Shown piece by piece: positions 857-29,753 of a DNA stretch of 31,552 bases. Numbering within the stretch: position 1 is the first letter of the stretch; each line of letters begins with the position of its first letter. The notes beneath the pieces were generated by a model. It saw nothing but the letters and a program-made list of their open reading frames with translations, made no database searches and was not told the origin of the DNA. The position numbers and the translations under genes were made by a program. This DNA is from Candidatus Woesearchaeota archaeon (GTDB lineage Archaea > Nanobdellota > Nanobdellia > Woesearchaeales > JAGVYF01): contig JACQSS010000011.1 of NCBI GenBank assembly GCA_016211195.1, positions 1-31,552 on the forward strand, written 5' to 3'.

Positions 857-3800
857 AACAGATCATTTTTCTTACTCTGCTTCTTCTAATGGCTGTGCCA
901 TCCTATGGCTATGTCCGGGCAACATTTGACCTCAGCGGTACAGTCATCCCCACCTTCTGGCGGTCTGCAGACATCCCGGTGCAGTGGACGACGTACCTCA
1001 ACGGTTCAGCAGATGTACCATTTAGTGCAATGATGCGGGCATTGAATAATAGCTTCGCAGTCTGGGAAAATCTCAGCTATGCCAATATCTCAACCTCCTA
1101 TCAAGGAAATACAACCAGCACTAATGTTGGCAACGATGCAGTGAACCTCATCGCTTTTGATGAAGATGGATCCTTCCTGTCACAAGGAGCATCAACGCTT
1201 GCCACAACACAATTCTTTGTCTCTGTCTCAACCGGACGTTTGCTCGATGCAGACATCATCTTCAATGGGAAATCATTTACATTTGCGACAGGCGGAGCAG
1301 ATTATGACATTGAATCCATTGCAATGCATGAGATTGGTCATTTCTTTGGACTTGACCATGCAGTCATCGGCTCAGAAGTTTCTACAGATAAACGGCCAAC
1401 CATGACTCCATTCTATATCGGTATCAATGGCAGGACCCTCGAGCAGGATGACCGGGCCGGGTTGGGTGCTACCTATCCCAGCGCCACCTTCTTCAATGTG
1501 ACAGGCAATGTCAGCGGCAATGTCCGTAATGGCACTCAGGAGATCTTCGGTGCCCAAATAGCAGCATTGAATGCGACGACTGGTGTGCCGGCAGTGGCCG
1601 TGCTGACTGGGTATCGCACTGGCTCTGGTGCAACCGGGCAGGGTGATTATCTCATGCTCGGACTTGAGCCCGGTAATTACACCATCAAAGCGACGCCCAT
1701 GGATGGCTCCAATGGTATCACCTCAAGCAACTTCAATGGGATTTTTTCCGATACCTTTGTCACATCATTCCGGACGCAGTATCATCCCAATGTCTTTAAC
1801 CAGTCACAGGCGCGCAATGTTACTATTGCACCAAATTCATTGACCCTTTCTTCGTTTGTTGGCACGCTGTATAATGTGAATATCTCAGCATCGGCTGACC
1901 AGACCATTTTCAATGGGACGAATGCAACATATGCTGTGCTGGTAGGCAACACCGGGAATGACAGGGATACGCTGACCCTTGCGCTTGCTGCCGATGGCAC
2001 TAATGCGTCATTGAATCAAAGCGCGTTTGCATCAGTGCCAGAAGGACAGGTACGTACTGCCTTGGTGACAGTCTCTGCCAGCGCGCCTGGCACTTATACA
2101 GTCCGTGTGAACGTCACATCACAGGGCAATGCGTCAGCGACAGCAGCAATCAACGTCACCACGACCGTACTGGAAACAGTGGCAGCTACAGCCATTTCGC
2201 CGGCATCGTCTGCTCTGGTCACGTCGCCAGTCTCATTTGTCTGTAATGCGACCGGGGCTTCACTCCAGAGCTTGACATTGTTTACGAACCAGAGCGGCTT
2301 TACAGGCGCCAGTACCCAGAATGTCAGCGGCACACGGAATCAAAGCACCTTCAATGTCTCACTCACGGATTCATCATATATCTGGACCTGCCTCGCCAAT
2401 GACACTATGGGAAATGCAGCATTTGCTGCTAACAGGACAGTAACTGTGGACAGTACTGCCCCGCTACTCTCATTAAATGTCAATGCGACCCGTCTTGAGA
2501 TGAATCAGGAATTCCTGCTCATCTCATGGGCGAGTCAGGATGCTCATTTGGGTTCTCCATTCGTTAATGTCTCTTACCCGAACGGTACATTATTTAATCG
2601 GACAGAGAATGCCAGTGGTGCCCTTGCAGTCTCTCCTGGACAATTGGGTACCTACACCATTGACTTGGTGGCCAATGATACGGTAGGTAACAGAAATGCA
2701 ACCCGTACAACCTTCACTGTTGTTGATACATCTGCACCTCTCGTGACGCTCCTGGCGCCAGTGAACGGTTCGGTGACGGGGGCAAATACAACGACTTTCT
2801 CCTGCAATGCGACCGATGTCACCGGGCTTGCTACACTGGCACTGTTCCACAATGGGCAAGGTACTTTTGCGCAGAACGAGTCAGTGTCCGTAACAGGAGC
2901 GCGGAACAATGTTACTGTCACTATTGGCGTTCCTGAAGCACAGCTTCTCTGGAACTGCAAGGCAACGGACATTAATGGAAATGCTTCCTTTGCTTCAGCA
3001 AACTTCTCTCTTATCACCGACCATAGTGCGCCGCGTGTCCATTCCATTGTTCTGAATGATGACTATGTTAGTCCAAATGGCACCATTGTTATGGTCGTCA
3101 ATGCAACAGATACATTGACAGACATTGCAAATGTGACTGCCAATGGGAGCCTGCTCCAAGCAAGCGGGGCTATTTTCAACAGGACTTTCAATGGATCATC
3201 CCAGGCCGGCCGTCATGTGGTCGCGGTGCTTGCAACAGATGAAGTAGGTAATAGTGTCTCTAATGTCACGACGTATGTCGTCGATGCAATATCTCCAGCC
3301 ATTTCGATCTATCTTCCTCCAAGAACTTTCTTTAGTCAGGATGGAAATGTGACACTACTCTGGCAGGTGACTGATGATAATATCAGTTCAACAAATATCA
3401 CTGTAGACACCACAACACAAGTTGGTGTCGTGAATAAGACACTGTCGGCACATAATTTTTCACAGGTCTTTTCTGATCTCAGGTCTGGCTCTCATGCAGT
3501 CATCATAGCTGCTGGTGACAATGCATCACGATCGACCATTCTCCGGTATAACTTCACACTGTCGCGGCCAGAGAACGTGACAGACCTCATCAATCGATTG
3601 CGGACAGCAGGTGGCTTCCAGAATATTGTCTACAGGCAACCGAATGGGAGCATCCTCTCCGGAAACATTCTTCTCAACCAGACACTCGTAAAAGATTTCA
3701 TCACGAATGCAAGCCTGGCCAATATAACAATCAACATAACTGCTTTCGGTGAGCATTTCGACGAAAGCAAGGCATCATTGATACGCCTGCAGTTGAACCG

Positions 3801-5499
3801 GACAGGTGTGTTTGGCTTGGCAGCAGGCCTCCGTCTTAGCGGACGGCCACCGAGTCAGTTCATCCTTTTCCAGAACATGAGCCAATACATTCCAGATAAC
3901 AATTATTCATTTCAGAACGGGACGAAGACATTTGCAACCATCAATTTCAATGGAGAGCTTGGTCGGCTTGTTCCCTTTTATGTCGTCGATGATGATGGTG
4001 CTGATGTCCGGCTGTTGGGTCAGTGCACGAATAACACAGCACCCACCACAGAGCCGTCATTGAGTACAATGTGCTACACGAACAGCAGTACTGCTGTGAC
4101 GCTTTACGTGCCGCATCTGTCCGGCGGCGGTCTTGATGATCCGGCAAATGCACCCACTATCAACATAACATCCCCCCAGGATCGTAGTAATGATACTGCT
4201 TTCACTGCTACGGGGCAGGTCCTTGACCTGAATCTTGGCAGTTGCACGTATAATCTTACGAATACAACGAGCACTCTCGTCTCCCCAACATCATTCAGCC
4301 CGTCGCTCGTGGGTGTAAACACCTCGAATTATACATTTTCTATAGACAATGCAGGTTTCACTGGTCTGGCTAATGGGAGCAGGTATAATCTGACCGTGAG
4401 TTGTTCTTCCACAGATGGAAACACAACCACTGTTGTCTCCTCATTTCAGGTGAATGACATTATCCCACCCCGTACCACAGCAATCACCACCAGCGGTGCA
4501 ACATCGGTAACTTCTTCAGGAACTCTTTCTGCATTGTTTACAACGCATGAATATGCGACGTGCGGGTACAACAGCTCTGTCCCAACGGCGGTCCTGACCT
4601 CATTTTCCCAAGCAAATACGAACCTCTCCAGCAGCAGTGCAGGAACAATACATACGTACTCAACAACGTACACTGCAGACGGGACAGTGACTGTCCCGGC
4701 TGTTATATGTATTGACGTCAACGGTAACAGTCAGTCACGGGCCAATGACAGCTTTGGCGTGGCCGTGAATGTTCAGGAGCCAAGTGCTTCGTCAAGTAGT
4801 GGTGGTGGAGGCGGCGGCAAGGCAACGCCAAAGACAACAGGCCCCATCAAAATTGTCAAAAAAATGGCTCATATCCAGCAAGGGCAAGCAGTTACAGTCA
4901 GCTTCATTGCAAAGGAAATCGCTCTGACAAAAATAGAGTTTATTGCTTCAGAAGCAATCTCAAACCTTGAGTTGTCTGTCAGCACAGCAGCTAAGCCAGT
5001 AACCATTCCAGAATTCCCGGGTCTTGTGTATCAATACATCACTATCACTTCTGCTCCTGAAGGAAAAGTGAAAAATGCCGCACTTGATTTCCGGCTTGCA
5101 AAAGAGTGGGTCGATGCAAATAAGTTGGACGATAAGACGATTGTCTTGTATCTGTTTGATGGTCAATGGCAACCATTACCGACGGTGAGTACTGGATCCA
5201 GCGATGTGCAGGTAACCTTCCGTGCGCAGACTCCGCATCTGAGCTGGTTTGCGATTGCTGGTCCACAGGAAGAAGAAGTTCCTGTAGAAGTGTCCACCAA
5301 GGAGCAGTCAGAGGAAACACAACTTGAGCCACCTCAACAGGAAGCAGTGCAGCAGCCAGTGAATGTGAGCACCTCCGGAGAAGTACAAGAGGTTTCACTA
5401 ATCGAAGGGCAGTCATGGGTGTGGTGGATCAGCGGGTTCTTTATACTGGTCCTGTTTGGCGCCTTCCTTGCATGGTGGCACTTTCGGAATCCGGAATGA
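835..5499 (+). CDS. Giant surface protein with an N-terminal matrixin/metzincin Zn-protease domain, Ig-like/CARDB-like repeats, a PGF-pre-PGF-like domain and a C-terminal TM anchor
   Basis: HEIGHFFGLDH (HExxHxxGxxH) with a downstream Met-turn candidate RPTMTP. Signal peptide KQIIFLTLLLLMAVPSYG. Carboxypeptidase-regulatory-like segment (GNVRNG...LEPGNYTIKATP). Recurrent domain boundaries VDSTAPLLSL / VDTSAPLVTL / TDHSAPRVHS / VDAISPAISI / VNDIIPPRTT. PGF-pre-PGF-like block (PGLVYQYITITS...LSWFAIAG), an acidic linker, then TM helix WVWWISGFFILVLFGAFLAWW. The start is uncertain: ATG 835, or GTG 853 in a GTGA overlap with the upstream stop. Confidence 0.9.
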   Translation: MVEGLPVKQIIFLTLLLLMAVPSYGYVRATFDLSGTVIPTFWRSADIPVQWTTYLNGSADVPFSAMMRALNNSFAVWENLSYANISTSYQGNTTSTNVGNDAVNLIAFDEDGSFLSQGASTLATTQFFVSVSTGRLLDADIIFNGKSFTFATGGADYDIESIAMHEIGHFFGLDHAVIGSEVSTDKRPTMTPFYIGINGRTLEQDDRAGLGATYPSATFFNVTGNVSGNVRNGTQEIFGAQIAALNATTGVPAVAVLTGYRTGSGATGQGDYLMLGLEPGNYTIKATPMDGSNGITSSNFNGIFSDTFVTSFRTQYHPNVFNQSQARNVTIAPNSLTLSSFVGTLYNVNISASADQTIFNGTNATYAVLVGNTGNDRDTLTLALAADGTNASLNQSAFASVPEGQVRTALVTVSASAPGTYTVRVNVTSQGNASATAAINVTTTVLETVAATAISPASSALVTSPVSFVCNATGASLQSLTLFTNQSGFTGASTQNVSGTRNQSTFNVSLTDSSYIWTCLANDTMGNAAFAANRTVTVDSTAPLLSLNVNATRLEMNQEFLLISWASQDAHLGSPFVNVSYPNGTLFNRTENASGALAVSPGQLGTYTIDLVANDTVGNRNATRTTFTVVDTSAPLVTLLAPVNGSVTGANTTTFSCNATDVTGLATLALFHNGQGTFAQNESVSVTGARNNVTVTIGVPEAQLLWNCKATDINGNASFASANFSLITDHSAPRVHSIVLNDDYVSPNGTIVMVVNATDTLTDIANVTANGSLLQASGAIFNRTFNGSSQAGRHVVAVLATDEVGNSVSNVTTYVVDAISPAISIYLPPRTFFSQDGNVTLLWQVTDDNISSTNITVDTTTQVGVVNKTLSAHNFSQVFSDLRSGSHAVIIAAGDNASRSTILRYNFTLSRPENVTDLINRLRTAGGFQNIVYRQPNGSILSGNILLNQTLVKDFITNASLANITINITAFGEHFDESKASLIRLQLNRTGVFGLAAGLRLSGRPPSQFILFQNMSQYIPDNNYSFQNGTKTFATINFNGELGRLVPFYVVDDDGADVRLLGQCTNNTAPTTEPSLSTMCYTNSSTAVTLYVPHLSGGGLDDPANAPTINITSPQDRSNDTAFTATGQVLDLNLGSCTYNLTNTTSTLVSPTSFSPSLVGVNTSNYTFSIDNAGFTGLANGSRYNLTVSCSSTDGNTTTVVSSFQVNDIIPPRTTAITTSGATSVTSSGTLSALFTTHEYATCGYNSSVPTAVLTSFSQANTNLSSSSAGTIHTYSTTYTADGTVTVPAVICIDVNGNSQSRANDSFGVAVNVQEPSASSSSGGGGGGKATPKTTGPIKIVKKMAHIQQGQAVTVSFIAKEIALTKIEFIASEAISNLELSVSTAAKPVTIPEFPGLVYQYITITSAPEGKVKNAALDFRLAKEWVDANKLDDKTIVLYLFDGQWQPLPTVSTGSSDVQVTFRAQTPHLSWFAIAGPQEEEVPVEVSTKEQSEETQLEPPQQEAVQQPVNVSTSGEVQEVSLIEGQSWVWWISGFFILVLFGAFLAWWHFRNPE

Positions 5500-17056: not shown

Positions 17057-17570
17057 ATTGCCGATGCCGTTCGTCCCGCATAATGGACGAAACGACGAAT
17101 CATGTGTGCCAGAGTTGCATCAAATTCAAGTTCTTCGGCAAAAGCTGCTGGTATTTCTGGGAAGGCAAGAAAGTCTGCACTATGAAGGAAGAGGAATAGA
17201 TAATGTGCATAGACGAGATTGTTGTGCCGGAATCGAAGGAGATGCAAGTGCACCCGCAATCAGGCTTGAGCAGCTTTTGCGTTGGCGCAGCCGGTGGTTT
17301 TGTCACGCTACTTTTACGAACCAATGTCTTATTCTATTTTGAATTCTTAACGCCTAATCAGAAGAAACTAGCGCGTGCACATTATGCATGGGAACTGAAT
17401 GGAGAGAAGCTGGACAGTGCACGCAGTGGTGATCAGTGTGGAGCAACGTGCGCGTTTTATACTGAATGTGCATTAGCCGTCGCTGCAGGAGGCTTTGGCG
17501 GTCTGGCGGGCATTGGATTGTACTTTGGTGCAAAAGCAGTGACGAACACGCTTGGGTATCTCTATTTTCG

Positions 17571-17577
17571 AAAAAGA
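17571..17577 (-). terminator. Oligo-T tract (TCTTTTT on the minus strand) immediately after the tRNA 3' end
   Basis: Plus-strand AAAAAGA directly abuts the discriminator base. Archaeal terminators are typically oligo-T tracts. Confidence 0.45.
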
Positions 17578-17652
17578 CGCGCCTGGGGGGATTCGAACCC
17601 CCGACCTTCAACTTAGGAGGCTGACGCTCTATCCAAACTGAGCTACAGGCGC
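17578..17652 (-). tRNA. tRNA-Arg(CCT): tRNA-Arg (anticodon CCT), no intron, CCA not encoded
   Basis: The reverse complement folds by hand into a cloverleaf: acceptor GCGCCTG/CAGGCGC, D stem GCTC/GAGC, anticodon stem TCAGC/GTTGA with loop CTCCTAA, T stem GGGGG/CCCCC with loop TTCGAAT. Total 75 nt. Confidence 0.9.
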
Positions 17653-17673
17653 ATGTGGTCGGGCAAAGAGCCA

Positions 17674-18375
17674 TTACTTAAAATCCTTTGCAATGCCCCA
17701 TAACAGTTCGAAATACTGCCGGAATGCGTCTGCAATGCCACTGTTGTTGATAAGAATTCCCAACGGCTTTTCCGTCCAGAGAATGATGGCCACCTTACTG
17801 CCATAAATATTCACAGCCGCTTTTGCATCAAGGGGGAGATATCGTATCGTGCTCAAGGGGATTGGGTATGACGGCCGCTGATTAAAGATCATCCGTATCT
17901 GGATGTGCTTCTTCTTCCTTGCTTCATCATACTTGTGGAAATAATACTTGATGATTTCCTGTGCCTGCGGCGATGCGCCAAGGACCAGAATCTCTTTTGC
18001 AGCCAGCTGGTCTGCGAGGATAGTCTTTACCCCTTCCTTTCCGCGGTAAAAGACCGTCTCCTGCTTTTCCTTGACGGTATTGAATTTGTTCAGGAGAGAC
18101 GGCATGATTTTTTCGACATCTTCCTGCGCCTGTTTCATGAGCTCGATGACATGCGCCGGGTTGGTCGCTTCATAGCGTTTTCGCTTACGCTCGACGATAT
18201 AACTAACAAGTCCTTTCTCAGCCAATCTGGCTAATAAATCATAAACCGAGCGGCGGTGGATGCCACTATGTTTTGCAATGCTTCCTGCGAGTGATGGGCC
18301 ATCATCCAGCAATGTCAGATAGACCTTTGCCTCATTCCGTGTGAGTCCAGCCAGCAACAGGATTTTTTCATCCAT
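17674..18375 (-). CDS. TrmB-family transcriptional regulator
   Basis: N-terminal winged-HTH LTRNEAKVYLTLLDDGPSLAGSIAKHSGIHRRSVYDLLARLAEKGLVSY, followed by a C-terminal effector-type domain. Confidence 0.8.
   Translation of the reverse strand: MDEKILLLAGLTRNEAKVYLTLLDDGPSLAGSIAKHSGIHRRSVYDLLARLAEKGLVSYIVERKRKRYEATNPAHVIELMKQAQEDVEKIMPSLLNKFNTVKEKQETVFYRGKEGVKTILADQLAAKEILVLGASPQAQEIIKYYFHKYDEARKKKHIQIRMIFNQRPSYPIPLSTIRYLPLDAKAAVNIYGSKVAIILWTEKPLGILINNSGIADAFRQYFELLWGIAKDFK
17676..17683 (-). promoter_or_regulatory. TATA-like element (TTTTAAGT on the minus strand) upstream of tRNA-Arg
   Basis: Lies 24 nt upstream of the tRNA 5' end and overlaps the TrmB stop codon. Confidence 0.4.
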
Positions 18376-18398: not shown

Positions 18399-19460
18399 TT
18401 AAAAATGCTGTGCTGCGAACAGCTCAGCAATCTGGGCTGGCCTCGTTGCATCGCGAGGTCCCTTATCCGTTGGTTCCCTGATGTGGGTGATGACAGGAAT
18501 AAGCAACGAATATGCTTTGTCCAAGCCCCCGCAGCTGTGCCAGTTGTCATTGTAGCTGATATCCTGTGCCTTGACCGTGACAACGATTGACTTGTCTGGA
18601 TTGACATACGCAGTCGGTATCTTGCGCTGGTACGTCTTTTTCTGCAATTTGGGGTTAAAGACAATATTCGGCGGAGGGCTATTGGTCAACTGTGATCCAA
18701 TGGATGTGGCGATTTCCTGTTGCAGTTCTCCCGTAACACCAACCTTAACCACAGTCTCATAGGTTCCTGTCGCATCGTTATATGCGCAGAGCAGAACAGC
18801 ATTGAATGGATTATTGTACACGCCGCCGACCACGAGGTCCAGTGTCTCAAATTCCTTAAGCTTGAGCCATGTCTTTGATTCCTTTCCCGCAAGGTATGGT
18901 GCCGTCCTATCTTTGGCGACAAGCCCTTCTTCCTTGCGCGTGTGCACAACGTCCATATAAAACGCAACCAAGTCTTGTTGTGTTGAGATATGCCTACTCT
19001 CTGCAGCAAGGACATTCTTTCCCACAACTATCTTCTCCAGCAGTCCGCGTCGTTCATCAAGCGATGCATCGAGCATTGACTGGCCATAGTAGAGCACGTC
19101 AAAGACACGCAACTGTATCGGGTACTCAGCTACTTTGGCATGGTCTGGATTTTTCTTTGGTCGGCGCTGGATAGCAACAAGGCCTTCTGCACCACCGGCA
19201 GTTCCTACGATTTCTGCGTCAAAGATCGTGGCAATCCTATAGCGCTCAAGGTCTGGCAGCAATTCCGGGAAGCATCGGGGATTAAGCTCCACAAAGTTTT
19301 TGGAAAAGAAGCATGGCCCCTGTCCGGGCATGATGTGGACTTCTGTCCGTTGTCCATTGTATTTGATGTCTGCCTGCGTTCGTCCCTTGTGCTGGCGCAA
19401 GGCGTTCTCCAGATTTCCATTAACCGCTTTCTGGAATGGGATTGGGGTTCCGGGTTTCAT
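18399..19460 (-). CDS. Minimal ATP-dependent DNA ligase (nucleotidyltransferase plus OB domains, no N-terminal DNA-binding domain)
   Basis: Motif I IKYNGQR (a variant of KxDGxR), motif III FDAEIVG, IIIa LRVFDVLYYG, IV EGLVAKD, V TWLKLK, and a motif VI-like IREPTDKGPRDAT. 353 aa. Confidence 0.8.
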   Translation of the reverse strand: MKPGTPIPFQKAVNGNLENALRQHKGRTQADIKYNGQRTEVHIMPGQGPCFFSKNFVELNPRCFPELLPDLERYRIATIFDAEIVGTAGGAEGLVAIQRRPKKNPDHAKVAEYPIQLRVFDVLYYGQSMLDASLDERRGLLEKIVVGKNVLAAESRHISTQQDLVAFYMDVVHTRKEEGLVAKDRTAPYLAGKESKTWLKLKEFETLDLVVGGVYNNPFNAVLLCAYNDATGTYETVVKVGVTGELQQEIATSIGSQLTNSPPPNIVFNPKLQKKTYQRKIPTAYVNPDKSIVVTVKAQDISYNDNWHSCGGLDKAYSLLIPVITHIREPTDKGPRDATRPAQIAELFAAQHF

Positions 19461-20659
19461 TGGTCATCACCATATTTCTTCATCGCATGCTGGAGTGCAC
19501 CATCATATCTGTTCTCAAGCGCATTGAGGATAGAACTGATGGCACATGCCGAACTTGCATATTGGTTCTTTTCTGTCTTATTCCGCCGCTGCAACGATGC
19601 CATAAAGCTGAGCCTCTTTTCCAGTTCCTTAATGTCATCATCATGGTCAAGGTGCGCTATTTTCCGGACAGAATGCTGTATCTGCCGGAGTGATGTCGAA
19701 TGACCCATGAGATTTTTTGTCTCGTAGACGAGATGGCCGAGCATTGCATACCGCTCGATGCGTTTTCCCAGTACTGTCTCCCGTATGGTGGGATATGCAA
19801 TGAGCAGCTCTCCAGCAAGCAGTTCCACCCGTTTGCGCGCCAATGGTGTTTTGGTCATGTGCTGGCAGAGCAGTGTCATATCATAAGCAAGGTCATAGAT
19901 CGTCTGTGCAGGCCGCTCTCTGAGCGCTGTCGCAAGCTGCTTGTTCAACCCCCTGTTCTCGTAGAGCATAAGATAATCTGTAAGCACGTCCCCGTCAATA
20001 GGGATGTCTTTGCTTGCTTCTACTCGCTCCTCAACTTTTTTTCCGAAAGCTGACAATGCCTCGAGTTTCATTGCAAGCGCTTCAAGCGAGAGGTCATGCT
20101 CATTGTCTTTCAGGTGGATAATCTTTCCTCGCACACCCGCTTCCTTATGCAGGAACAGTGTCCAGTTCGTGCAGAGACCATTATACCATGAAATACCGTA
20201 CTTCACTGCAGATTCGCCGTTGCCGCCCCAGTTTCCGTACTTTCCGAGGTCGATGAATGCATAGAGGTTGCCTAGTGAACCCGATAAAGGAACATGGACC
20301 ATTGATGGATGGAACTGCTGCTCGACAATACCCCCAACGTGTAGGCGAGTGAGTGCGTCGCGTATCTGATCAGCAGTAATGCCTGCAAATTTTGATGTGA
20401 CAAGCCCGAACCATTCCTGCCCGGTGCCCCTCACGTAATAGTCACGGTGCTGGAGCTCTTCCTCAAGGCGCATGGCCAAATACATGTTAGCATCATCGCT
20501 GTTCAAACCATTGCATTCGTCCCTCCGGATTCCCAGCCTGCGCATGAGTTTCTGTGTCAGTGGGTGGGGGAGGACGATTTCTCCACCCGGTGTCTCGATA
20601 TGGACATGGCTGTTCACTGTGACTTTTCCTTCAAGCTTTTTGACGATTGTATTGTTCAT
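19457..20659 (-). CDS. Hypothetical protein with a DUF932-like N-terminal domain and a helical C-terminal extension
   Basis: Its stop overlaps the ligase start (ATGA). ATG 20659 is preceded by GGTGA at 5-nt spacing, so the GTG at 20668 in the ORF track is probably part of that SD. The core NGESAVKYGISWYNGLCTNWTLF resembles the DUF932 core DGS...G..R.VCTNG. Confidence 0.7.
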   Translation of the reverse strand: MNNTIVKKLEGKVTVNSHVHIETPGGEIVLPHPLTQKLMRRLGIRRDECNGLNSDDANMYLAMRLEEELQHRDYYVRGTGQEWFGLVTSKFAGITADQIRDALTRLHVGGIVEQQFHPSMVHVPLSGSLGNLYAFIDLGKYGNWGGNGESAVKYGISWYNGLCTNWTLFLHKEAGVRGKIIHLKDNEHDLSLEALAMKLEALSAFGKKVEERVEASKDIPIDGDVLTDYLMLYENRGLNKQLATALRERPAQTIYDLAYDMTLLCQHMTKTPLARKRVELLAGELLIAYPTIRETVLGKRIERYAMLGHLVYETKNLMGHSTSLRQIQHSVRKIAHLDHDDDIKELEKRLSFMASLQRRNKTEKNQYASSACAISSILNALENRYDGALQHAMKKYGDDQ

Positions 20660-20690
20660 TTTCTTCACCGGGCATCGGAAATCAGCAGTA

Positions 20691-20699
20691 TTATATTAA
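20691..20699 (-). promoter_or_regulatory. TATA-like element (TTAATATAA on the minus strand) upstream of the DUF932-like/ligase operon
   Basis: Lies about 32 nt upstream of ATG 20659, which leaves room for a short SD-containing leader. Confidence 0.35.
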
Positions 20700-20749
20700 G
20701 CAATGTGGTGATGAAGAACACCACATTTTATAGAATCAATTTCAACAAC

Positions 20750-20757: not shown

Positions 20758-20779
20758 CGATTATGTCCTTGTTTTCGGT

Positions 20780-21949
20780 ATGTACGACACCATTTATGAA
20801 CCACGGGAAGACACGTACCTGCTTGGTCGGGCCGTGAGTAGATATGCCCATGGTCGCGTGCTCGACATGGGTACTGGATCCGGCTATCTGGCCCATCTTG
20901 CTGCCCGTAAAGCAAAGCGTGTTGTCGCCGTTGACATCAATCCGGAAGCAATCGCCTATTGCCGTAAGCAGCATCATGACAGGAATATAACATTCATTGA
21001 AAGCAATCTCTTTTCTGCATGTGTTGGTCCATTTGACACAATCATCTTCAACCCGCCATATCTCCCATACGATAAGCGGGAGCCATTGCAGTCGCGGCTC
21101 ATCACGACTGGAGGGAAACATGGCTATGAGCTTCTTGTTCGTTTTATCCAACAGAGCTCGCGCTATCTTTCTTCCCGAGGAGTAATCCTTATTGTGTTTA
21201 GTTCCCTCACCAACAAAGAGAAAATTGATGAGGTGATCATGCAATCTTTGCTCGAGAAAGAAATGGTCATGATGCAGAGGATACCTCATGAGCAGTTGTA
21301 CGTGTATCGTATTACCAAAACTCCTGTGTATACTGTGCTGGAGAAAACCGGAGTTACGGAACTCGCTTTTTTTGCAAAAGGTAAGCGTGGTCTTGTGTTC
21401 ACGGGTCAACTGGGGAATAAGACCATCGCAGCCAAAGTACATCACCCGATGTCCCGGGCGCTTGAAGCATTAGCCCGTGAGGCACGGATGCTGAACGTTG
21501 TTAACAAGCTCGGCATAGGGCCTAAGCTGCTTGGCCACGGCAAATGGTATGTGCTCTATGAATTTGTTCCGGGTGAGCAATTCCGCTACAGGTTGCCATC
21601 CATGAACAAAGATAACCTCAAAAAATTCTTTAAGAGCTTGCTGCTGCAACTTCTTATGCTCGATAAGCATGGCATTGCTAAGGAAGAGATGAGTAACCCC
21701 TATAAGCATATCATTGTTGATGGTGCAAAGCCGGTCCTGCTCGATTTTGAGCGGGCGCATAAGACAAAGCGACCGCATAATGTCACCCAGTTCTGCAGTT
21801 ACCTGTTACGGTTACAGCCCCTTCTTGTCCGGAAAAAGATACGATTCTCGCGTAATGCAGTCATTGCATGGGCAAAGAATTATCGTCCACAACAGCAGTA
21901 TCTTAATAAACTGCTTCGTATTCTTTTCAGTCATGGGAGAACACTATAA
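20780..21949 (+). CDS. Fusion protein: Mtq2/PrmC-like NPPY methyltransferase plus a C-terminal atypical Bud32/RIO-like kinase domain
   Basis: N-terminal part: YEPREDTYLL, VLDMGTGSGYLA and FNPPY (21050-21061). C-terminal part: glycine loop GKRGLVFTG, AAKVHH lysine, EARML helix-C Glu, LDKHGIAKEEMSNPYKHIIV and LLDFERA. The start at 20780 is chosen from the TATA spacing and the canonical Mtq2 N-terminus. ATG 20711 is an alternative. The ORF upstream of that overlaps the opposite-strand gene. Confidence 0.75.
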   Translation: MYDTIYEPREDTYLLGRAVSRYAHGRVLDMGTGSGYLAHLAARKAKRVVAVDINPEAIAYCRKQHHDRNITFIESNLFSACVGPFDTIIFNPPYLPYDKREPLQSRLITTGGKHGYELLVRFIQQSSRYLSSRGVILIVFSSLTNKEKIDEVIMQSLLEKEMVMMQRIPHEQLYVYRITKTPVYTVLEKTGVTELAFFAKGKRGLVFTGQLGNKTIAAKVHHPMSRALEALAREARMLNVVNKLGIGPKLLGHGKWYVLYEFVPGEQFRYRLPSMNKDNLKKFFKSLLLQLLMLDKHGIAKEEMSNPYKHIIVDGAKPVLLDFERAHKTKRPHNVTQFCSYLLRLQPLLVRKKIRFSRNAVIAWAKNYRPQQQYLNKLLRILFSHGRTL

Positions 21950-23468: not shown

Positions 23469-24535
23469 AAAAGGCGCAGGAAAGAGAACTTCTTGCAGGT
23501 GAAGTAGTTGAGCATGAGGAGAGAAAAGCCCTGCTTCTGGAGGCTGCTGATATCTATATCACATTATCAAAGGTCTGTGCAGCAGGCCTTGCCCAGACAT
23601 ACGTCCAACGTGCCAAAGAATGCTATGTCGCATCGCAGCAGCAGCCTAAAAAATCATATCGCCCTCTTATTGTCGAGGAGAAGAAATTGTCATTCGATGA
23701 CGTTGCAGGTTTGGAGCAAGTCAAGGAGAAAATCCGGCTGAAGATTATAGAACCTTTCCGGCACCCAGACCTCTACGCATATTATGGGAAAAAGGTTGGA
23801 GGGGGTATTCTTATGTACGGGCCTCCGGGTTGTGGAAAAACTCTGATAGCAGAAGCTGCGGCGCATGAAGCCGGTTGTTCATTCTTTGTTGCCAATGTGA
23901 GTAACCTGACCAGCAAATATGTGGGTGAAACGGAAAAGAATATCTCCAGTCTCTTTGCACAGGCGCGGGAAGCTGCGCCCAGTATCATCTTCTTTGATGA
24001 GCTTGAAGCCCTGGGTAGTGAGCGGAGCACTGCACAGGAATATGCCCGGACTGCAGTCAGCCAATTGCTCGTTGAAATCAATGGTCTGGGAAACCGCGAC
24101 CAACGTATCCTGCTGATTGGTGCAACCAATGAACCATGGAATGTGGATATCGCATTGCGGCGGGCAGGACGATTCGGGGATCCTCTTTTTGTCCCCCCCC
24201 CAGACTTCAAGACACGGTACAAACTTGTCAAGCAGTATCTCACATTAAAGCCTGTCGCGGGTGATGTCAATGGTATTGCCATTGCTATTGAGACTGAAGG
24301 ATATTCTGGCGCAGACCTTGTGGAGCTGTGCGATAACGCCATTGAGATCGCGTTGCGGGATTCGCTCGCCAGCAAAAAGCCACGTCAGGTAACGATGGAT
24401 GATTTCATTGCTGTGCTTTCAGGCAAACGGGCAGCAACTGTGAATTGGTTCAGGATGGCATTGCAGGAGTTGAAGAAGGATGATACACTCTTTGGTGAGA
24501 TCATGCAGCACAGCCGTCGGCTGGTGGCGATATGA
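23447..24535 (+). CDS. Single-domain AAA+ ATPase (Vps4/CDC48-like) with a helical, possibly MIT-like, N-terminal domain
   Basis: Walker A GPPGCGKT, Walker B IIFFDELEAL, SKYVGETEK, second region of homology GATNEPWNVDIALRRAGRFG. The N-terminal ~65 aa are helical. Confidence 0.85.
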   Translation: MQHDDLLKKAQERELLAGEVVEHEERKALLLEAADIYITLSKVCAAGLAQTYVQRAKECYVASQQQPKKSYRPLIVEEKKLSFDDVAGLEQVKEKIRLKIIEPFRHPDLYAYYGKKVGGGILMYGPPGCGKTLIAEAAAHEAGCSFFVANVSNLTSKYVGETEKNISSLFAQAREAAPSIIFFDELEALGSERSTAQEYARTAVSQLLVEINGLGNRDQRILLIGATNEPWNVDIALRRAGRFGDPLFVPPPDFKTRYKLVKQYLTLKPVAGDVNGIAIAIETEGYSGADLVELCDNAIEIALRDSLASKKPRQVTMDDFIAVLSGKRAATVNWFRMALQELKKDDTLFGEIMQHSRRLVAI

Positions 24536-27644: not shown

Positions 27645-29753
27645 CTACTTCATTATTTCGTGTATCTGCTCTGGCCCTGAGATTACTTGATAGCCGAAAA
27701 CAGGACCTTGCACATGCTTCATCACTTTCTCAATGAGCTGTTTTGTCTTGTGCTCAGCAGCGTCAATTCCTATCTCGGGCATGACAATATAATAACTAAA
27801 CTGTGAGCGCGGTACCTTTGTCATGAAATCAATTGGCCTCAGGTCAGCTTCGATGATTGCTTCAATCCTTGTTATCAGGGACAATGCCTCATCCCGCTTC
27901 ATTGTCTGGAGAATGCGTTCGAAATTGGTGATATTCAGCATGATAAGTGACAACGGTTTTCCGCTCTCGTGCGTGCGCTTCCATTCAGCAGAGAGCTGCT
28001 CCTTGAAGTTATTGAGGCCGCGTGCCTGCGTATGGTAGAACTGGTAAAAGAATCCATGTCGCTCCAGTAGTTTGGTGAATGTGCCTTGTTCGGCCACAAC
28101 ACCATCCTGCAGAAAGACAATCTTATCAACATTCTTGATTGTTGACAAACGGTGGGCAATGATGATTGTTGTCTTGCCCCGGGTGGCATACTCCAATGCT
28201 TCCTGTATCTTCTCTTCAGACTCAGAATCGAGAGAAGATGTGGCCTCGTCAAGGACGATAATCTTCGGGTTTTTCAAGATTGTCCGTGCAATGGAGATGC
28301 GCTGTTTCTGTCCGCCGGAGAGATTGACACCCCGCTCGCCTACAATCGTATTGTATCCCTTTCTGAGCTTCGCGATAAAATCATGGATGTTGGCAAGCCG
28401 TGCAGCTTGTTCTATTTCTTCGTCGGTCGCATCCAGTTTGCCCAGCCGGATATTCTCTTTGATGGTGGCATTAAACAAAATGGTCTCCTGTGAAACATAT
28501 CCAATATTACGTCGCAGGGCTGCAAGTTGTACGTCACGTAGATCTTTTCCATCCAGTGTGATTTTGCCCTGTGCCGGGTCATAGAACCGTGCAATAAGGT
28601 TGGCAATCGTTGTCTTGCCTGAACCTGATGGCCCAACCAAACCCACTGCTTGTCCTGACTTTACCACGAAACTGACATCCTGCAGCACCGGTGCAGTTGG
28701 TTGATAGGAAAAACCAACGTGCTGCAAAGTAACTGCACCCTTGATCAGTCCTAGGGGGCGAGCATTTTTCTTCTCGACGACTTTTGGTTTCGTGTCCAGA
28801 AATTCGAAGACTCTGTTCACGGAAACCATTGTTGACTGGATCGCGATATTGATGCTGCCTAATTCAGAGATAGGACCGAATAGCTTTCCAATATATGTGT
28901 ACAGTGCCATCAGTGCACCGACAGAGATGACATCCTTGATAACCATGTAGCTGCCGTACCACAGGATGATGATCAGTGGAGTGAACGTAATAAGCCCCAC
29001 AACAGTGCCGCTATAGCTTTGGAGAAGGCTGAGGTCCAGATTTAGGTTGATGAGCTTCGTATTTTTTTTCTTGTAGCGCTCGAGCGCGACATTTTCCAGC
29101 ACAAACGACTTTATTGCCTGAATGCTGGTAATGTTCTCCTGCAAGAAGCTAAGCAGGTCACTGGCCCTGTTGATAAGGATCTGTTTTTTCTTACGTACCA
29201 GCTTCCCAAAGTACTTCTGGCTCACGACGTAAAATGGGAAAAAAGCCAATGATGCAAGTGTCACCTGCCAGTTGAGGGAGAGGCAGATGGCGAGAATAAA
29301 AATAGTTGTCAGGACATTCATCAGGATGGAATCAACCACAATGCCGATGAATGATTCAATGCCATAGACGTCATCGTCCAGACGGACAAGAATGTCCCCT
29401 ATCTTGCGCGTATGGAAAAAGCCCAAGTCCAGGTTTTCCAAATGCTCAAACAGCTTGGTCTTGACATCAAACACGATGTTTTCCGCGAGGAGTGTGGTCT
29501 GATAGGACGTGTAGATTTGCACGAAACTCTTGAGGAAGAACAATGCAATGAAGAGGAGCATAAGATAATAGAGAAGATTGAAATCTTTTCTGATGAGAAT
29601 GTCATCTATAAGGATCTTGACAAGGTACGGGCTGACTAAAGACAACGCAGTGAGAAAGGTGGCAATAACAAAGAGCCACAGGATAAGCCCTTTGTAGGGC
29701 GCGGCAAACCGCATGATGCGCCTGAATTTTTGATAGTAGTACCTGAATGCCAT
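27645..29753 (-). CDS. ABC exporter (fused TMD-NBD, MsbA-like) with a ~126-aa C-terminal degenerate GGDEF-like extension
   Basis: Six-TM ABC_membrane region, Walker A GPSGSGKTT, signature LSGGQKQR, Walker B IIVLDEATSSLD, H-loop IIIAHRL. The tail starts after ...FYQFYHTQ. Confidence 0.85.
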   Translation of the reverse strand: MAFRYYYQKFRRIMRFAAPYKGLILWLFVIATFLTALSLVSPYLVKILIDDILIRKDFNLLYYLMLLFIALFFLKSFVQIYTSYQTTLLAENIVFDVKTKLFEHLENLDLGFFHTRKIGDILVRLDDDVYGIESFIGIVVDSILMNVLTTIFILAICLSLNWQVTLASLAFFPFYVVSQKYFGKLVRKKKQILINRASDLLSFLQENITSIQAIKSFVLENVALERYKKKNTKLINLNLDLSLLQSYSGTVVGLITFTPLIIILWYGSYMVIKDVISVGALMALYTYIGKLFGPISELGSINIAIQSTMVSVNRVFEFLDTKPKVVEKKNARPLGLIKGAVTLQHVGFSYQPTAPVLQDVSFVVKSGQAVGLVGPSGSGKTTIANLIARFYDPAQGKITLDGKDLRDVQLAALRRNIGYVSQETILFNATIKENIRLGKLDATDEEIEQAARLANIHDFIAKLRKGYNTIVGERGVNLSGGQKQRISIARTILKNPKIIVLDEATSSLDSESEEKIQEALEYATRGKTTIIIAHRLSTIKNVDKIVFLQDGVVAEQGTFTKLLERHGFFYQFYHTQARGLNNFKEQLSAEWKRTHESGKPLSLIMLNITNFERILQTMKRDEALSLITRIEAIIEADLRPIDFMTKVPRSQFSYYIVMPEIGIDAAEHKTKQLIEKVMKHVQGPVFGYQVISGPEQIHEIMK

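What the first reader, a model, noticed from the sequence alone, without database searches (positions are those of the whole stretch)
18399..20659. DUF932-like protein translationally coupled to a minimal ATP-dependent ligase, downstream of which lie TrmB and tRNA-Arg
The 400-aa upstream ORF has an N-terminal region whose core, NGESAVKYGISWYNGLCTNWTLF, follows an earlier SKFAGITADQIRDAL segment. This resembles what I recall of DUF932 (PF06067; prophage and ICE proteins such as E. coli YfjQ/YafZ, with core DGSSSY...G.FRFVCTNGLV). A ~200-aa helical extension follows.

Its TGA overlaps the ATG of a 353-aa ligase that has only the NTase and OB domains. I do not know of a described DUF932-ligase pairing. 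DUF932 is typical of mobile elements and its function is unknown.

The two-gene module has its own SD and TATA. It sits next to a TrmB regulator and a tRNA gene, which is a classic integration hotspot. It could be a mobile-element remnant, or a nucleic-acid repair or defence module.
Basis: partly seen in the sequence, partly recalled or inferred. Interest (0 to 1): 0.65.

Follow-up and report, generated by a model that had tools for sequence, protein, structure and literature searches.

The report
DUF932-fold protein, minimal ligase, TrmB operon
An uncultured DPANN archaeon (relatives are Woesearchaeota) carries a regulated three-gene operon that pairs a very distant relative of the unexplained DUF932 family with an unusual DNA ligase lacking its DNA-binding domain; this gives a first testable lead on what DUF932-type proteins do.

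Summary
A 400-aa ORF (19457-20659, minus strand) overlaps by ATGA a 353-aa ATP-dependent ligase (18399-19460). A TrmB-family regulator follows 23 nt downstream, then tRNA-Arg(CCT).

The DUF932 guess holds for fold but not for Pfam membership. No HMM hit was found for any of 34 family members. A confident AlphaFold model (pLDDT 89) matches phage DUF932/TIGR03299 proteins over about 330 residues (Foldseek E down to 1.7e-9).

The ligase belongs to a small clade derived from archaeal Lig1-type enzymes. It lacks the DNA-binding domain and has its own OB-domain insertions. Ligases of this clade sit next to the DUF932-like gene in five, probably six, distinct loci, in two different gene orders.

The commoner partner is the TrmB-like regulator, adjacent in 13 of about 20 loci. 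Every family gene whose upstream DNA was on the contig is preceded by a conserved 20-nt palindrome, GTGGTGA-N6-TCACCMC, placed just upstream of a TATA box.

The mobile-element and integration-hotspot reading is not supported. Synteny is chromosomal and conserved, no integrase is present, and there are no viral or defence-database hits.

Most likely this is a dedicated, autoregulated nucleic-acid repair or sealing module. Its biochemical function is inferred, not shown.

The parts
20705..20724 (.). 20-nt inverted repeat GTGGTGTTCTTCATCACCAC (read on the minus strand). Proposed operator, with family consensus GTGGTGA-N6-TCACC(A/C)C.
   Evidence: It is the only 0-mismatch match to GTGGTG-N8-CACCAC in the 31.5-kb window. 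The same element lies at the same position upstream of X genes in 16 distinct loci and essentially nowhere else in 183 kb of related DNA.
20691..20699 (-). TATA-like box TTAATATAA of the X operon, starting 6 nt downstream of the palindrome.
   Evidence: Read directly. Equivalent boxes (TGATATAC, TCATATAG, TTATATA) follow the palindrome by 4-10 nt in all loci. Promoter function is inferred.
20665..20669 (-). GGTGA Shine-Dalgarno-like element 5 nt upstream of the X ATG. It contains the spurious GTG 'start' at 20668.
   Evidence: Read directly.
19457..20659 (-). X: a 400-aa protein of a small unannotated archaeal family with a DUF932-like fold. Its parts are an alpha/beta core (residues 1 to about 190), a family-wide helical domain (about 190-300) and a window-specific helical C-terminal extension (about 300-400, coordinates 19460-19759).
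   Evidence: ORF. The family has 34 clusters among 1.84 billion representatives, all 280-350 aa apart from fragments. AlphaFold2 model pLDDT 88.9, pTM 0.81. Foldseek against BFVD hits DUF932/TIGR03299 proteins at E 1.7e-9 to 5e-3. hhalign against a DUF932 profile gives P 0.0045 and exceeds 300/300 shuffles.
20114..20251 (-). Conserved core motif of X (residues 137-182): D-x-G-x-x-G-x-x-G-G-N-G-E-S-A...G...C-T-N-W-T-L-F...I-H. It aligns to the DUF932 signature N-S-H-D-G-S-S...G-x-F-R-x-V-C-x-N-G...H.
   Evidence: Invariant in X: G139, G142, G145, G146, H182. Nearly invariant: G148, G155. The aligned pairs are N147/D108, G148/G109, G155/G118, C162/C124, N164/N126 and H182/H141.
19457..19460 (-). 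ATGA overlap of the X stop (TGA) and the ligase start (ATG). GGTGA lies at 19467-19471, 6 nt upstream.
   Evidence: Read directly. L001 has the same 4-nt overlap.
18399..19460 (-). 353-aa ATP-dependent ligase with NTase and OB domains only and no N-terminal DNA-binding domain. Motif I is K33-Y-N-G-Q-R (Asn in place of the canonical Asp). It carries clade-specific OB-domain insertions (RKIP..Y and NWHSCG..AYSL).
   Evidence: PF01068 6e-26, PF04679 E 0.01. TIGR00574 positions 182-526 of 527. PDB alignments to 2cfm, 4eq5, 2hiv and 1x9n start at their residues of about 220-320. Alignment with five sister ligases and five canonical ones.
17674..18375 (-). 233-aa TrmB-family regulator (wHTH plus dimerisation helix, and an uncharacterised C-terminal half of about 120 aa). 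It starts 23 nt after the ligase stop and is preceded by GGTGGA. Proposed binder of the palindrome.
   Evidence: PF01978 2e-16. 3qph residues 14-117 match residues 9-115. Orthologues at 43-68% identity flank X in 13 distinct loci. Junction read directly. Binding to the palindrome is inferred.
17576..17653 (-). tRNA-Arg(CCT), 20 nt downstream of the TrmB stop on the same strand, followed by a T-run.
   Evidence: ARAGORN. Rfam RF00005, 70.6 bits. The same tRNA follows TrmB in L001.

Best explanation
This is a chromosomal operon of a DPANN archaeon whose named relatives are all Woesearchaeota. It is not a mobile element.

**Shown**
- One promoter region carries a conserved 20-nt palindrome directly upstream of a TATA box.
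- Behind it lie three tightly packed genes: X, a 400-aa protein with a DUF932-like fold; a two-domain (NTase-OB) ATP-dependent ligase that has lost the DNA-binding domain of its Lig1-type ancestors; and a TrmB-family regulator.
- The pairing of X with this ligase clade recurs in several lineages, and the palindrome and the TrmB neighbour are conserved across the family.

**Inferred**
- The TrmB-like dimer binds the palindrome and so controls the operon, and itself, probably in response to a ligand or stress sensed by its uncharacterised C-terminal half.
- X is the nucleic-acid-engaging partner. Through its mildly basic, conserved alpha/beta core it recognises or prepares a broken nucleic-acid substrate (a nick or an end) and hands it to the ligase, which lacks a DNA-binding domain and then seals it.
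- In lineages without the ligase gene, X would do the same first step alone or with another sealing enzyme.
For: **Gene structure**
- ORFs, the ATGA overlap, the 23-nt and 20-nt gaps and SD-like elements show one compact same-strand unit.

**X has a DUF932-like fold**
- The model is confident.
- In BFVD, 16 hits have E<=1e-3. Every hit that carries a family name is DUF932 or TIGR03299. Alignments cover about 330 columns, that is both domains.
- hhalign scores 28.5, against shuffled controls of mean about 15 and maximum 25 (0/300 reach it), and lies in the DUF932 signature register.

**Ligase**
- Catalytic K33, E83, D121, E178/G179/K183, K200/K202 and R328/D332 are conserved.
- The protein starts exactly at the DBD/NTase boundary.
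- Six such ligases share OB insertions that canonical ligases lack.

**Recurrent pairing**
- X then ligase in the window, L001, L030 and L031, and probably L032.
- Ligase then X in L034. These loci span three X sub-clades.
- A changed gene order with retained adjacency argues for functional linkage.

**Regulation**
- TrmB orthologues (43-68% identity) flank X in 13 distinct loci.
- The palindrome plus TATA lies upstream of X or its operon in 16 distinct loci and is essentially exclusive to that position.

**Chromosomal context**
- Synteny with housekeeping genes and the tRNA is conserved in L001.
- The window has no integrase, there are no viral relatives and no PADLOC hits.

**Charge**
- The X core domain is basic in most members (median net charge +3.5, pI 8.9).
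Against: - No biochemical or structural evidence shows that X binds nucleic acid or the ligase. Neither X nor DUF932 has a detectable solved relative, so fold gives no mechanistic clue.
- More X loci lack an adjacent ligase than have one: 10 of about 20 distinct loci, including all 8 of sub-clade E. X therefore has a ligase-independent role.
- Three of the six ligases were found through X, so 'every ligase of this clade is next to X' is biased by ascertainment.
- The third ligase found independently (P0161) has only two short unannotated ORFs upstream, and its DNA could not be read.
- Other two-domain ligases, such as Chlorella virus ligase, work alone. The clade-specific OB insertions might make this one self-sufficient too.
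- Motif I deviates (Asn for Asp here; Arg is lost in L030 and L034), so normal ligase chemistry is not guaranteed (PMC6035275).
- The window's own X core domain is not basic (net charge -1).
- That TrmB binds the palindrome is inferred from co-occurrence only.
Confidence: 0.45

Rival explanations
1. X is an enzyme in its own right, such as an end-processing nuclease, a phosphoesterase or another hydrolase or transferase that uses the conserved Asn/Asp-Gly, Cys-x-Asn and His residues. The ligase is a lineage-specific add-on that seals the product of X. This would be a 'heal-and-seal' pair, rather than X acting as a passive DNA-binding cofactor.
For: - X occurs without a ligase in 10 of about 20 distinct loci, so it must do something alone.
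- The residues shared between X and DUF932 are polar and potentially catalytic: N147/D108, C162/C124, N164/N126 and the invariant H182/H141.
- The module has a dedicated regulator, as inducible enzymes often do.
Against: - The Cys is lost in many sub-clade E members.
- There is no similarity to any known hydrolase fold.
- No activity has been tested.
- This rival overlaps the best explanation and differs from it only in whether X is catalytic.
Confidence: 0.25
2. This is a split replicative ligase. X replaces the lost DNA-binding domain and forms the third part of the clamp around DNA, and the pair is the cell's only DNA ligase.
For: - The ligase begins exactly where the DBD ends in canonical enzymes and derives from the Lig1 type.
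- X is encoded immediately upstream and is translationally coupled.
- X has a large helical domain.
Against: - The X model shows no similarity to any ligase DBD in the PDB, although many such structures are there.
- The X fold is that of DUF932 proteins, which are not ligase-associated in phages.
- X often occurs without a ligase, and in L034 the gene order is reversed with a 95-nt gap.
- A housekeeping replicative ligase would not be expected to need a dedicated operator and local regulator.
- Whether these genomes also carry a canonical ligase could not be checked.
Confidence: 0.08
3. This is the first reader's reading: a remnant of a mobile element, or a defence module, integrated next to a tRNA gene.
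For: - DUF932 proper is typical of prophages, ICEs and phages.
- A tRNA gene lies 20 nt from the module.
- In L034 the neighbourhood includes toxin-antitoxin genes.
Against: - The same order (methyltransferases, X, ligase, TrmB, tRNA-Arg, then a GH15-like gene nearby) is kept in L001 at only 45-71% protein identity.
- There is no integrase, transposase or flanking element gene in the 31.5-kb window.
- GC content is flat across the region.
- No family member was found in IMG/VR.
- There are no PADLOC hits for X, the ligase or YfjQ.
- The family has its own conserved operator and regulator across Woesearchaeota lineages.
Confidence: 0.07
4. There is no functional link. The ligase merely sits in the X/TrmB neighbourhood by descent, and X and the ligase work in unrelated processes.
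For: - Most X genes lack a ligase neighbour.
- Operons in small DPANN genomes can be mixed.
- The number of independent pairs is small (5-6).
Against: - Both families are very rare: 34 clusters of X among 1.84 billion representatives, and six known ligases of this clade.
- Even so, they are adjacent in three X sub-clades, with 0-12 nt spacing or overlap in five loci, and in reversed order in a sixth.
- In L034 the palindrome and TATA precede the ligase, so the ligase is under the same control as X.
Confidence: 0.12

Closest known systems
DUF932 / PF06067 (also TIGR03299 'phage/plasmid-like protein' and 'DUF945'; for example E. coli CP4-57 YfjQ)
   Same: - The overall two-domain fold, an alpha/beta core plus a helical domain, over about 330 aligned columns.
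- The order and register of the signature: [ND]-G-[ST]-S ... G ... C-x-N ... H.
- Similar size (about 270-350 aa) and no known function.
   Different: - Sequence similarity is below the reach of HMMER and Pfam.
- X has a Gly-rich loop (G-x-x-G-x-x-GGNG) where DUF932 has N-S-H-D-G.
- X is archaeal and chromosomal, with a dedicated TrmB-type regulator, an operator and often a ligase.
- DUF932 proper sits in bacterial prophages, ICEs and phage early regions with no ligase nearby.
Minimal two-domain ATP-dependent DNA ligases (Chlorella virus ligase, T7 ligase, bacterial LigC/LigE, the LIG domain of LigD)
   Same: - NTase + OB architecture without an N-terminal DNA-binding domain.
- The catalytic lysine and motifs III, IIIa, IV, V and VI are conserved.
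   Different: - By sequence it is closest to three-domain archaeal and eukaryotic Lig1-type enzymes (2cfm at 6e-22, against LigD-type at about 5e-4), so it is a secondary loss of the DBD.
- It has unique OB insertions (RKIP..Y and NWHSCG).
- Motif I is relaxed (K-Y-N-G-Q-R).
- It is encoded next to a DUF932-like gene.
Ku-LigD non-homologous end joining (bacteria and some archaea)
   Same: The concept only: a ligase without its own DBD, encoded beside a non-catalytic or end-binding partner.
   Different: - X has no sequence or fold similarity to Ku.
- No polymerase or phosphoesterase domains are present.
- End joining has not been tested.
TrmB/TrmBL1-type archaeal regulators with palindromic operators near BRE/TATA (for example the Thermococcales TGM, TATCAC-N5-GTGATA, cited from my own knowledge)
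   Same: - An N-terminal wHTH plus a dimerisation helix (PF01978; 3qph residues 14-117).
- A palindromic site placed beside the TATA box.
   Different: - The protein is only 233 aa, and its C-terminal half has no match to the TrmB sugar-binding domain.
- The operator sequence is different (GTGGTGA-N6-TCACCMC).
- The target is a DUF932-like/ligase operon rather than sugar metabolism genes.

Membership tests
DUF932 (Pfam PF06067) | Match to the Pfam HMM at or above the gathering score | tested here: not met
   No PF06067 hit at E<=1 for X or for any of 34 family members. The positive control YfjQ scores 3.4e-52.
DUF932 (Pfam PF06067) | Same three-dimensional fold as bona fide DUF932 proteins | tested here: met
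   Foldseek against BFVD gives E 1.7e-9 to 5e-3 and probability 1.00. TM-scores normalised to the target reach 0.54 and about 330 columns align. Named hits are DUF932 or TIGR03299. All of this rests on predicted structures on both sides.
DUF932 (Pfam PF06067) | Signature N-S-x-D-G-[ST]-S ... G-x-[FY]-R-x-[VI]-C-x-N-G ... H | tested here: inconclusive
   hhalign aligns GGNGESA..G.S...C.NWT...IH with SHDGTSS..G.FR.VC.NG...H. The score is 28.5 (P 0.0045, probability 7.7%) and exceeds 300/300 shuffles. The Asp is replaced by Asn, the Arg is absent, and the Cys is lost in some members.
DUF932 (Pfam PF06067) | Location in mobile elements (prophage, ICE, plasmid, phage) | tested here: not met
   The synteny is conserved and chromosomal, with no integrase and no viral relatives.
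ATP-dependent DNA ligase, adenylation domain (PF01068) | HMM match above the cut-off, and the motif I lysine nucleophile | tested here: met
   PF01068 at 91.8 bits against a cut-off of 26.2. K33 is invariant in the alignment with canonical ligases.
ATP-dependent DNA ligase, adenylation domain (PF01068) | Canonical motif I, K-x-D-G-x-R | tested here: not met
   The window and L001 have K-Y-N-G-x-R. Sister ligases have KFDGYG, KSNGHR and KSDGFC. The consequences depend on the enzyme (PMC6035275).
ATP-dependent DNA ligase, adenylation domain (PF01068) | OB-fold domain with motif VI | tested here: inconclusive
   PF04679 scores only E 0.01 (16.7 bits against a cut-off of 27.5). However, phmmer alignments to 4eq5, 2hiv and 1x9n run to the C-terminus, and R328 and D332 of motif VI are conserved.
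Archaeal/eukaryotic Lig1-type three-domain ligase (TIGR00574 dnl1) | N-terminal DNA-binding domain (PF04675) | tested here: not met
   No PF04675 hit. The protein aligns to model positions 182-526 of 527 and starts at the DBD/NTase boundary. It scores 122 bits against a cut-off of 217.8.
TrmB family regulator (PF01978) | N-terminal TrmB-type wHTH | tested here: met
   PF01978 at 2e-16, 60 bits against a cut-off of 25.6. It also matches 3qph.
TrmB family regulator (PF01978) | C-terminal sugar-binding effector domain of TrmB/TrmBL1 | tested here: not met
   NCBIfam TrmB and TrmBL1 equivalogs match only residues of about 8-113 and score far below their cut-offs. No family hit covers residues 116-233.
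Known anti-phage defence systems (PADLOC-DB v2) | HMM match of any component | tested here: not met
   No hit for X, for three ligases of the clade, or for YfjQ. TrmB gives only generic HTH matches to Csa3/CasR.

The most novel reading that the evidence does not exclude
DUF932-superfamily proteins in general, including the thousands of copies in bacterial prophages, ICEs, plasmids and phages, are recognition or processing factors for DNA nicks or ends that act upstream of ligation. The Woesearchaeota operon, in which a DUF932-fold protein is hard-wired to a ligase that has discarded its own DNA-binding domain, would then be the 'Rosetta stone' that reveals the family's function.
Probability: 0.2. 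Interest if true: 0.8.

Novelty: new variant of a known kind. Interest (0 to 1): 0.6.

Why it matters
**A lead on DUF932.** DUF932 is a large family. One search with YfjQ returned more than 7,000 protein clusters. It sits in early or leading regions of phages and in prophages, and I found no experimental function for it in the searchable literature and no solved structure. A conserved, regulated operon that couples a DUF932-fold protein to a ligase lacking its own DNA-binding domain gives a concrete hypothesis that can be tested cheaply: the protein acts on broken nucleic acid upstream of sealing.

**A ligase clade I found no description of.** It derives from Lig1-type enzymes, has lost the DBD and carries distinctive OB-domain insertions. 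This bears on how minimal ligases find their substrates and on DNA maintenance in genome-reduced DPANN archaea.

**A ready-made regulatory system.** The 20-nt palindrome plus the TrmB-like protein form a regulator and operator pair in a lineage where almost nothing is known about transcriptional control.

Tried and rejected
- **HMM libraries.** Pfam, NCBIfam, PHROGs and PADLOC scans of X gave no meaningful hit. The T6PP_N hit at 9e-4 is below its cut-off, lies in the window-specific tail and was ignored.
- **PDB by sequence.** X, the X-family profile and the DUF932 profile found nothing.
- **PDB by fold.** Foldseek with the full model returned only generic helical bundles. With the core domain alone, the best hits were OB-fold proteins (RMI1/2, Cdc13/Stn1) at E>=0.17 and TM<0.3, which is not significant and was not used.
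- **X helical domain as a displaced ligase DBD.** There was no ligase hit in the fold search, so the idea was rejected.
- **Locus searches.** The search for related loci with the 34-sequence alignment failed because the alignment has no conserved stretch, so it was rerun with the 6-sequence alignment. The GTDB scan found only one locus. The IMG/VR scan found none.
- **DUF932 profile.** The search with YfjQ returned only close relatives. A diverse DUF932 profile was therefore built from phage genes. Two members with internal duplications (P0039, P0090) were removed.
- **Phage contexts.** I looked for ligases beside DUF932 genes in four phages and found none.
- **Accessory ORFs.** The small ORFs in the operons (L034 99 aa, L031 128 aa, L035 184 aa) and the C-terminal extension of X in the window are unrelated to one another.
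- **Extra operator copies.** A second palindrome-like site at 24492-24511 and a few others have two mismatches and are within chance expectation.
- **Bacterial promoter and terminator scan.** Uninformative, with counts at shuffle level.
- **Technical failures.** Model coordinates are not exposed, so the spatial clustering of the conserved residues could not be tested.


Full report
**1. What is in the sequence**

The minus strand between 20724 and 17576 carries one compact unit. In order it contains:
- a 20-nt inverted repeat, GTGGTGTTCTTCATCACCAC (20724-20705);
- a TATA-like TTAATATAA (20699-20691);
- a GGTGA Shine-Dalgarno-like element (20669-20665);
- a 400-aa ORF, called X here (ATG at 20659, stop at 19457);
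- a 353-aa ORF whose ATG overlaps the X stop in the tetranucleotide ATGA (19460-18399);
- 23 nt containing GGTGGA;
- a 233-aa ORF (18375-17674);
- 20 nt, then tRNA-Arg(CCT) (17653-17576; Rfam 70.6 bits) followed by a T-run.

The GTG start reported by the ORF finder at 20668 lies inside the GGTGA element. Homologues align from the ATG, so the 400-aa reading is preferred.

**2. The ligase**

The 353-aa protein hits PF01068 at 6e-26 and the OB domain PF04679 only weakly. Against the Lig1-type model TIGR00574 it covers positions 182-526 of 527. In the PDB its best matches are three-domain archaeal ligases (2cfm at 6e-22, also 4eq5, 3gde, 2hiv) and human LIG1. In each case the match starts at their residues of about 220-320, which is after the DNA-binding domain. 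LigD-type minimal ligases match far worse (about 5e-4). It is therefore a Lig1-derived enzyme that has lost the DBD.

A search of 5.8 billion proteins found only two close relatives, both also without a DBD: P0160 (53% identity) and P0161 (38%). All 40 further hits carry PF04675. Three more DBD-less ligases came to light beside X homologues (L030, L031, L034).

In a joint alignment the six share insertions in the OB domain that the canonical enzymes lack (RK[IV]P..Y and N[WF]H[ST]CG...A[YH]S[LI]). They therefore form one distinct clade. The following catalytic residues are conserved:
- K33 (motif I);
- E83 (motif III);
- D121 (motif IIIa);
- E178, G179 and K183 (motif IV);
- K200 and K202 (motif V);
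- R328 and D332 (motif VI).

Motif I is relaxed. The window and L001 have K-Y-N-G-x-R, and L034 and L030 lack the Arg. According to PMC6035275, the motif I Asp is needed by Chlorella virus ligase on adenylated substrate, is dispensable in LigIV on that substrate, and is not conserved in T4 Rnl2. Activity is therefore plausible but not assured.

**3. The upstream protein X**

*No sequence-level annotation.* HMM libraries give nothing: no DUF932 hit for X or for any of 34 family members at E<=1, no PADLOC hit and no PDB relative by sequence or profile.

*A small family.* An exhaustive phmmer search of 1.84 billion representatives found only 34 clusters. Apart from fragments, all are 280-350 aa, so residues of about 300-400 of the window's protein are a lineage-specific helical extension. 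The members that carry a source name are 'hypothetical protein [Candidatus Woesearchaeota archaeon]'. The single hit among GTDB species representatives is also a Woesearchaeota genome.

*Conserved core.* The core reads D-S-G-x-F-G-x-Y-G-G-N-G-x-x-A...G.S...C-x-N-W-T-L-F...R-x-I-H-R. F91, G139, G142, G145, G146 and H182 are invariant.

*Fold match to DUF932.* An AlphaFold2 model built on the family alignment is confident (pLDDT 88.9, pTM 0.81). Against the PDB it finds only generic helical bundles. A model of the core domain alone finds nothing significant either. Against BFVD it finds 16 proteins at E<=1e-3 with probability 1.00, aligned over about 250-390 columns. Every hit that carries a family name is a 'DUF932 domain-containing protein' or 'LGT_TIGR03299 phage/plasmid-like protein'.

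*Independent sequence test.* I built a DUF932 profile from E. coli YfjQ (PF06067 at 3.4e-52), two close relatives of it, and seven phage homologues at 25-40% identity. hhalign between this profile and the X family gives a weak score of 28.5 (P 0.0045, probability 7.7%). The score exceeds all 150 column-shuffled and all 150 block-shuffled profiles (means 14-15.5, SD 2.4, maximum 25.0) and the reversed profile (12.4).

*Conclusion.* X is a very remote member of the DUF932 fold superfamily. It is not a member of Pfam family PF06067 as that family is currently defined.

**4. Is the pairing real?**

Contexts were recovered for about 20 distinct X loci. They fall into these groups:

| Arrangement | Loci | Notes |
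|---|---|---|
| X then ligase, overlap or 2-12 nt gap | window, L001 (sub-clade A); L030, L031 (sub-clade C) | |
| X then probable ligase | L032 (sub-clade C) | the truncated downstream ORF matches the Lys-rich N-termini of the L030 and L031 ligases |
| Ligase then X | L034 (sub-clade D) | order is divergent TrmB, 99-aa ORF, ligase, X |
| TrmB neighbour, no ligase | L005, L014/15, L011, L012, L016, L018, L019, L035, L037 | |
| Neither ligase nor TrmB adjacent | L033; the L002/L007 lineage | |
| Too little flanking DNA to judge a ligase | L008, L017, L038/L039 | L038 has TrmB upstream |

Sub-clades are defined. The ligase is therefore linked to X in three of the four 'long' sub-clades, and in two different gene orders, but it is not universal.

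Two caveats apply. Three of the ligases were found through X, which is an ascertainment bias. The independently found P0161 ligase has a TrmB gene 2 kb away and two short unannotated ORFs upstream that together span about 302 codons, the size of an X gene. Its DNA could not be fetched.

Bona fide DUF932 genes in four phages have no ligase nearby. The pairing is therefore specific to this archaeal branch.

**5. The regulator and a conserved operator (outside the finding's coordinates)**

The commonest neighbour of X is an orthologue of the window's TrmB-like protein (43-68% identity). It is adjacent in 13 distinct loci, usually divergently transcribed.

Reading the intergenic regions showed the same element in front of every X gene for which upstream DNA was available: GTGGTGA-N6-TCACC(A/C)C, followed after 4-10 nt by a TATA-like box. 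The element ends 39-142 nt before the ATG. Its placement varies with context:
- In divergent loci it lies between two TATA boxes. The other TATA box sits about 25 nt from the TrmB ATG, which suggests a leaderless transcript.
- In L034 it precedes the whole operon of 99-aa ORF, ligase and X.
- It is also present where TrmB lies downstream (window, L001, L037) and where TrmB is absent from the fragment (L007, L032, L033).

In the window the exact palindrome occurs once; about 0.002 occurrences are expected for 12 specified bases in 31.5 kb. In 183 kb of related DNA, strong matches occur only at this position. The three other matches have two mismatches each and are within chance expectation.

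The TrmB-like protein matches P. furiosus TrmB (3qph) only over the wHTH and the dimerisation helix. Its C-terminal 120 residues have no detectable relative. That this protein binds the palindrome is an inference from co-occurrence.

**6. Is it a mobile element?**

No. The evidence is as follows:
- The window encodes ordinary archaeal functions: AglB/STT3, a GT4 glycosyltransferase, Kae1/TsaD, an AAA ATPase, a radical-SAM enzyme and methyltransferases. It has no integrase or transposase.
- GC content is flat.
- L001, whose proteins are only 45-71% identical, keeps the same order: methyltransferase, HemK2-like MTase, X, ligase, TrmB, tRNA-Arg(CCT), and nearby a GH15-like gene.
- No relative was found in IMG/VR.

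**7. Mechanism**

*Shown:*
- a compact operon with overlapping or closely spaced genes;
- a DUF932-fold protein;
- a ligase clade without a DBD whose catalytic residues are largely intact;
- recurrent adjacency of the two;
- a conserved palindrome and TATA box;
- a conserved TrmB-like neighbour.

*Inferred:*
- The TrmB-like dimer binds the palindrome and controls the operon, which is autoregulatory in the window.
- X engages or prepares a broken nucleic-acid substrate.
- The ligase seals it.

Weak support comes from the basic character of the X core domain in most members and of DUF932 proteins, although the window's own copy is not basic.

The main alternatives are:
- X is itself an enzyme, and the ligase seals its product.
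- X is a substitute for the ligase DBD in a split replicative ligase. This is unlikely: X shows no DBD similarity, it often occurs without a ligase, and the operon has a dedicated regulator.
- The module is a mobile or defence element, which is not supported.
- The adjacency has no functional meaning. This is unlikely given how rare both families are and that the gene order has been rearranged while adjacency was kept.

**8. Novelty**

I found no experimental function for DUF932, DUF945, TIGR03299, YfjQ or YafZ in the searchable literature. I also found no paper describing a DUF932-ligase pairing or a DBD-less archaeal ligase in DPANN.

The finding is best classed as a new variant of known kinds:
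- a remote archaeal branch of the DUF932 superfamily;
- a new DBD-less clade of Lig1-type ligases;
- a TrmB-family regulator with a new operator.

Its value is as a lead to the function of DUF932.

Noticed in passing
window 20705-20724, with equivalents in L001, L005, L007, L008, L011, L012, L015, L016, L019 and L032-L039: A conserved 20-nt palindrome, GTGGTGA-N6-TCACC(A/C)C, lies immediately upstream of a TATA-like box in front of every X-family gene or operon. In divergent loci it sits between the TATA boxes of TrmB and X. It lies outside the coordinates of the finding as given.
   Followed up: yes
window 20777-21949 (+); also L001 866-2029 and L008: The gene divergent from X encodes a HemK2/MTQ2-type methyltransferase (TIGR00537 at 3e-34) fused to a C-terminal kinase-like region (weak APH and Ser/Thr-kinase matches). 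The ORF finder's GTG start at 20447 overlaps X and is probably wrong. An ATG at 20777 preceded by TATTTAAG fits a leaderless start.
   Followed up: partly
window 27645-29753 (-): A 702-aa ABC exporter (ABC_membrane + ABC_tran) carries a C-terminal GGDEF domain (PF00990, 26.9 bits against a cut-off of 23.8). Diguanylate-cyclase domains are, to my knowledge, unusual in archaea.
   Followed up: no
window 817-5499 (+): A 1560-aa protein has an N-terminal matrixin-type metalloprotease domain (PF00413) and Big-like repeats. It is probably a large secreted or surface protein.
   Followed up: no
JGI sample 3300075153, 10.9-kb contig encoding P0161 (no DNA available): The third DBD-less ligase is preceded by two short unannotated ORFs (157 and 86 aa, together spanning about 302 codons). 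They could be a disrupted X gene. The ligase is convergent with a spore-photoproduct-lyase-type radical-SAM DNA repair gene, and a TrmB gene lies 2 kb upstream.
   Followed up: partly
L031 2944-4908 (-): A HerA-type helicase (DUF87/HerA_C) lies two genes downstream of the X-ligase pair in a Woesearchaeota contig. This is a faint hint of a DNA-repair neighbourhood.
   Followed up: no
L037 1-100: The DNA upstream of the palindrome and X gene contains two copies of a sequence resembling a tRNA 3' end (GGTTCAAATCCGGGCGGTGGCG and GTCCGGGCGGTGGCG). A tRNA may therefore flank the module in another lineage too.
   Followed up: no
L012 about 2609-2622: A second, shorter palindrome, TGGTGAATCACC (half-sites with no spacer), lies about 20 nt upstream of the main operator, on the TrmB side of it.
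   Followed up: no
window 17057-17575: A gap of about 500 bp between the acyltransferase-like gene and the tRNA has no family hit and no Rfam match. A 137-aa ORF (17203-17616, +) with a Gly-rich hydrophobic stretch overlaps the tRNA on the opposite strand.
   Followed up: no
proteins P0062 and P0134 (E. coli-type DUF932 relatives): Some bacterial DUF932 proteins are listed as fusions with an MMR_HSR1 or dynamin-type GTPase domain (PF01926, PF00350). This matches the adjacent yfjP GTPase gene in CP4-57 and suggests a DUF932-GTPase link in bacteria.
   Followed up: no
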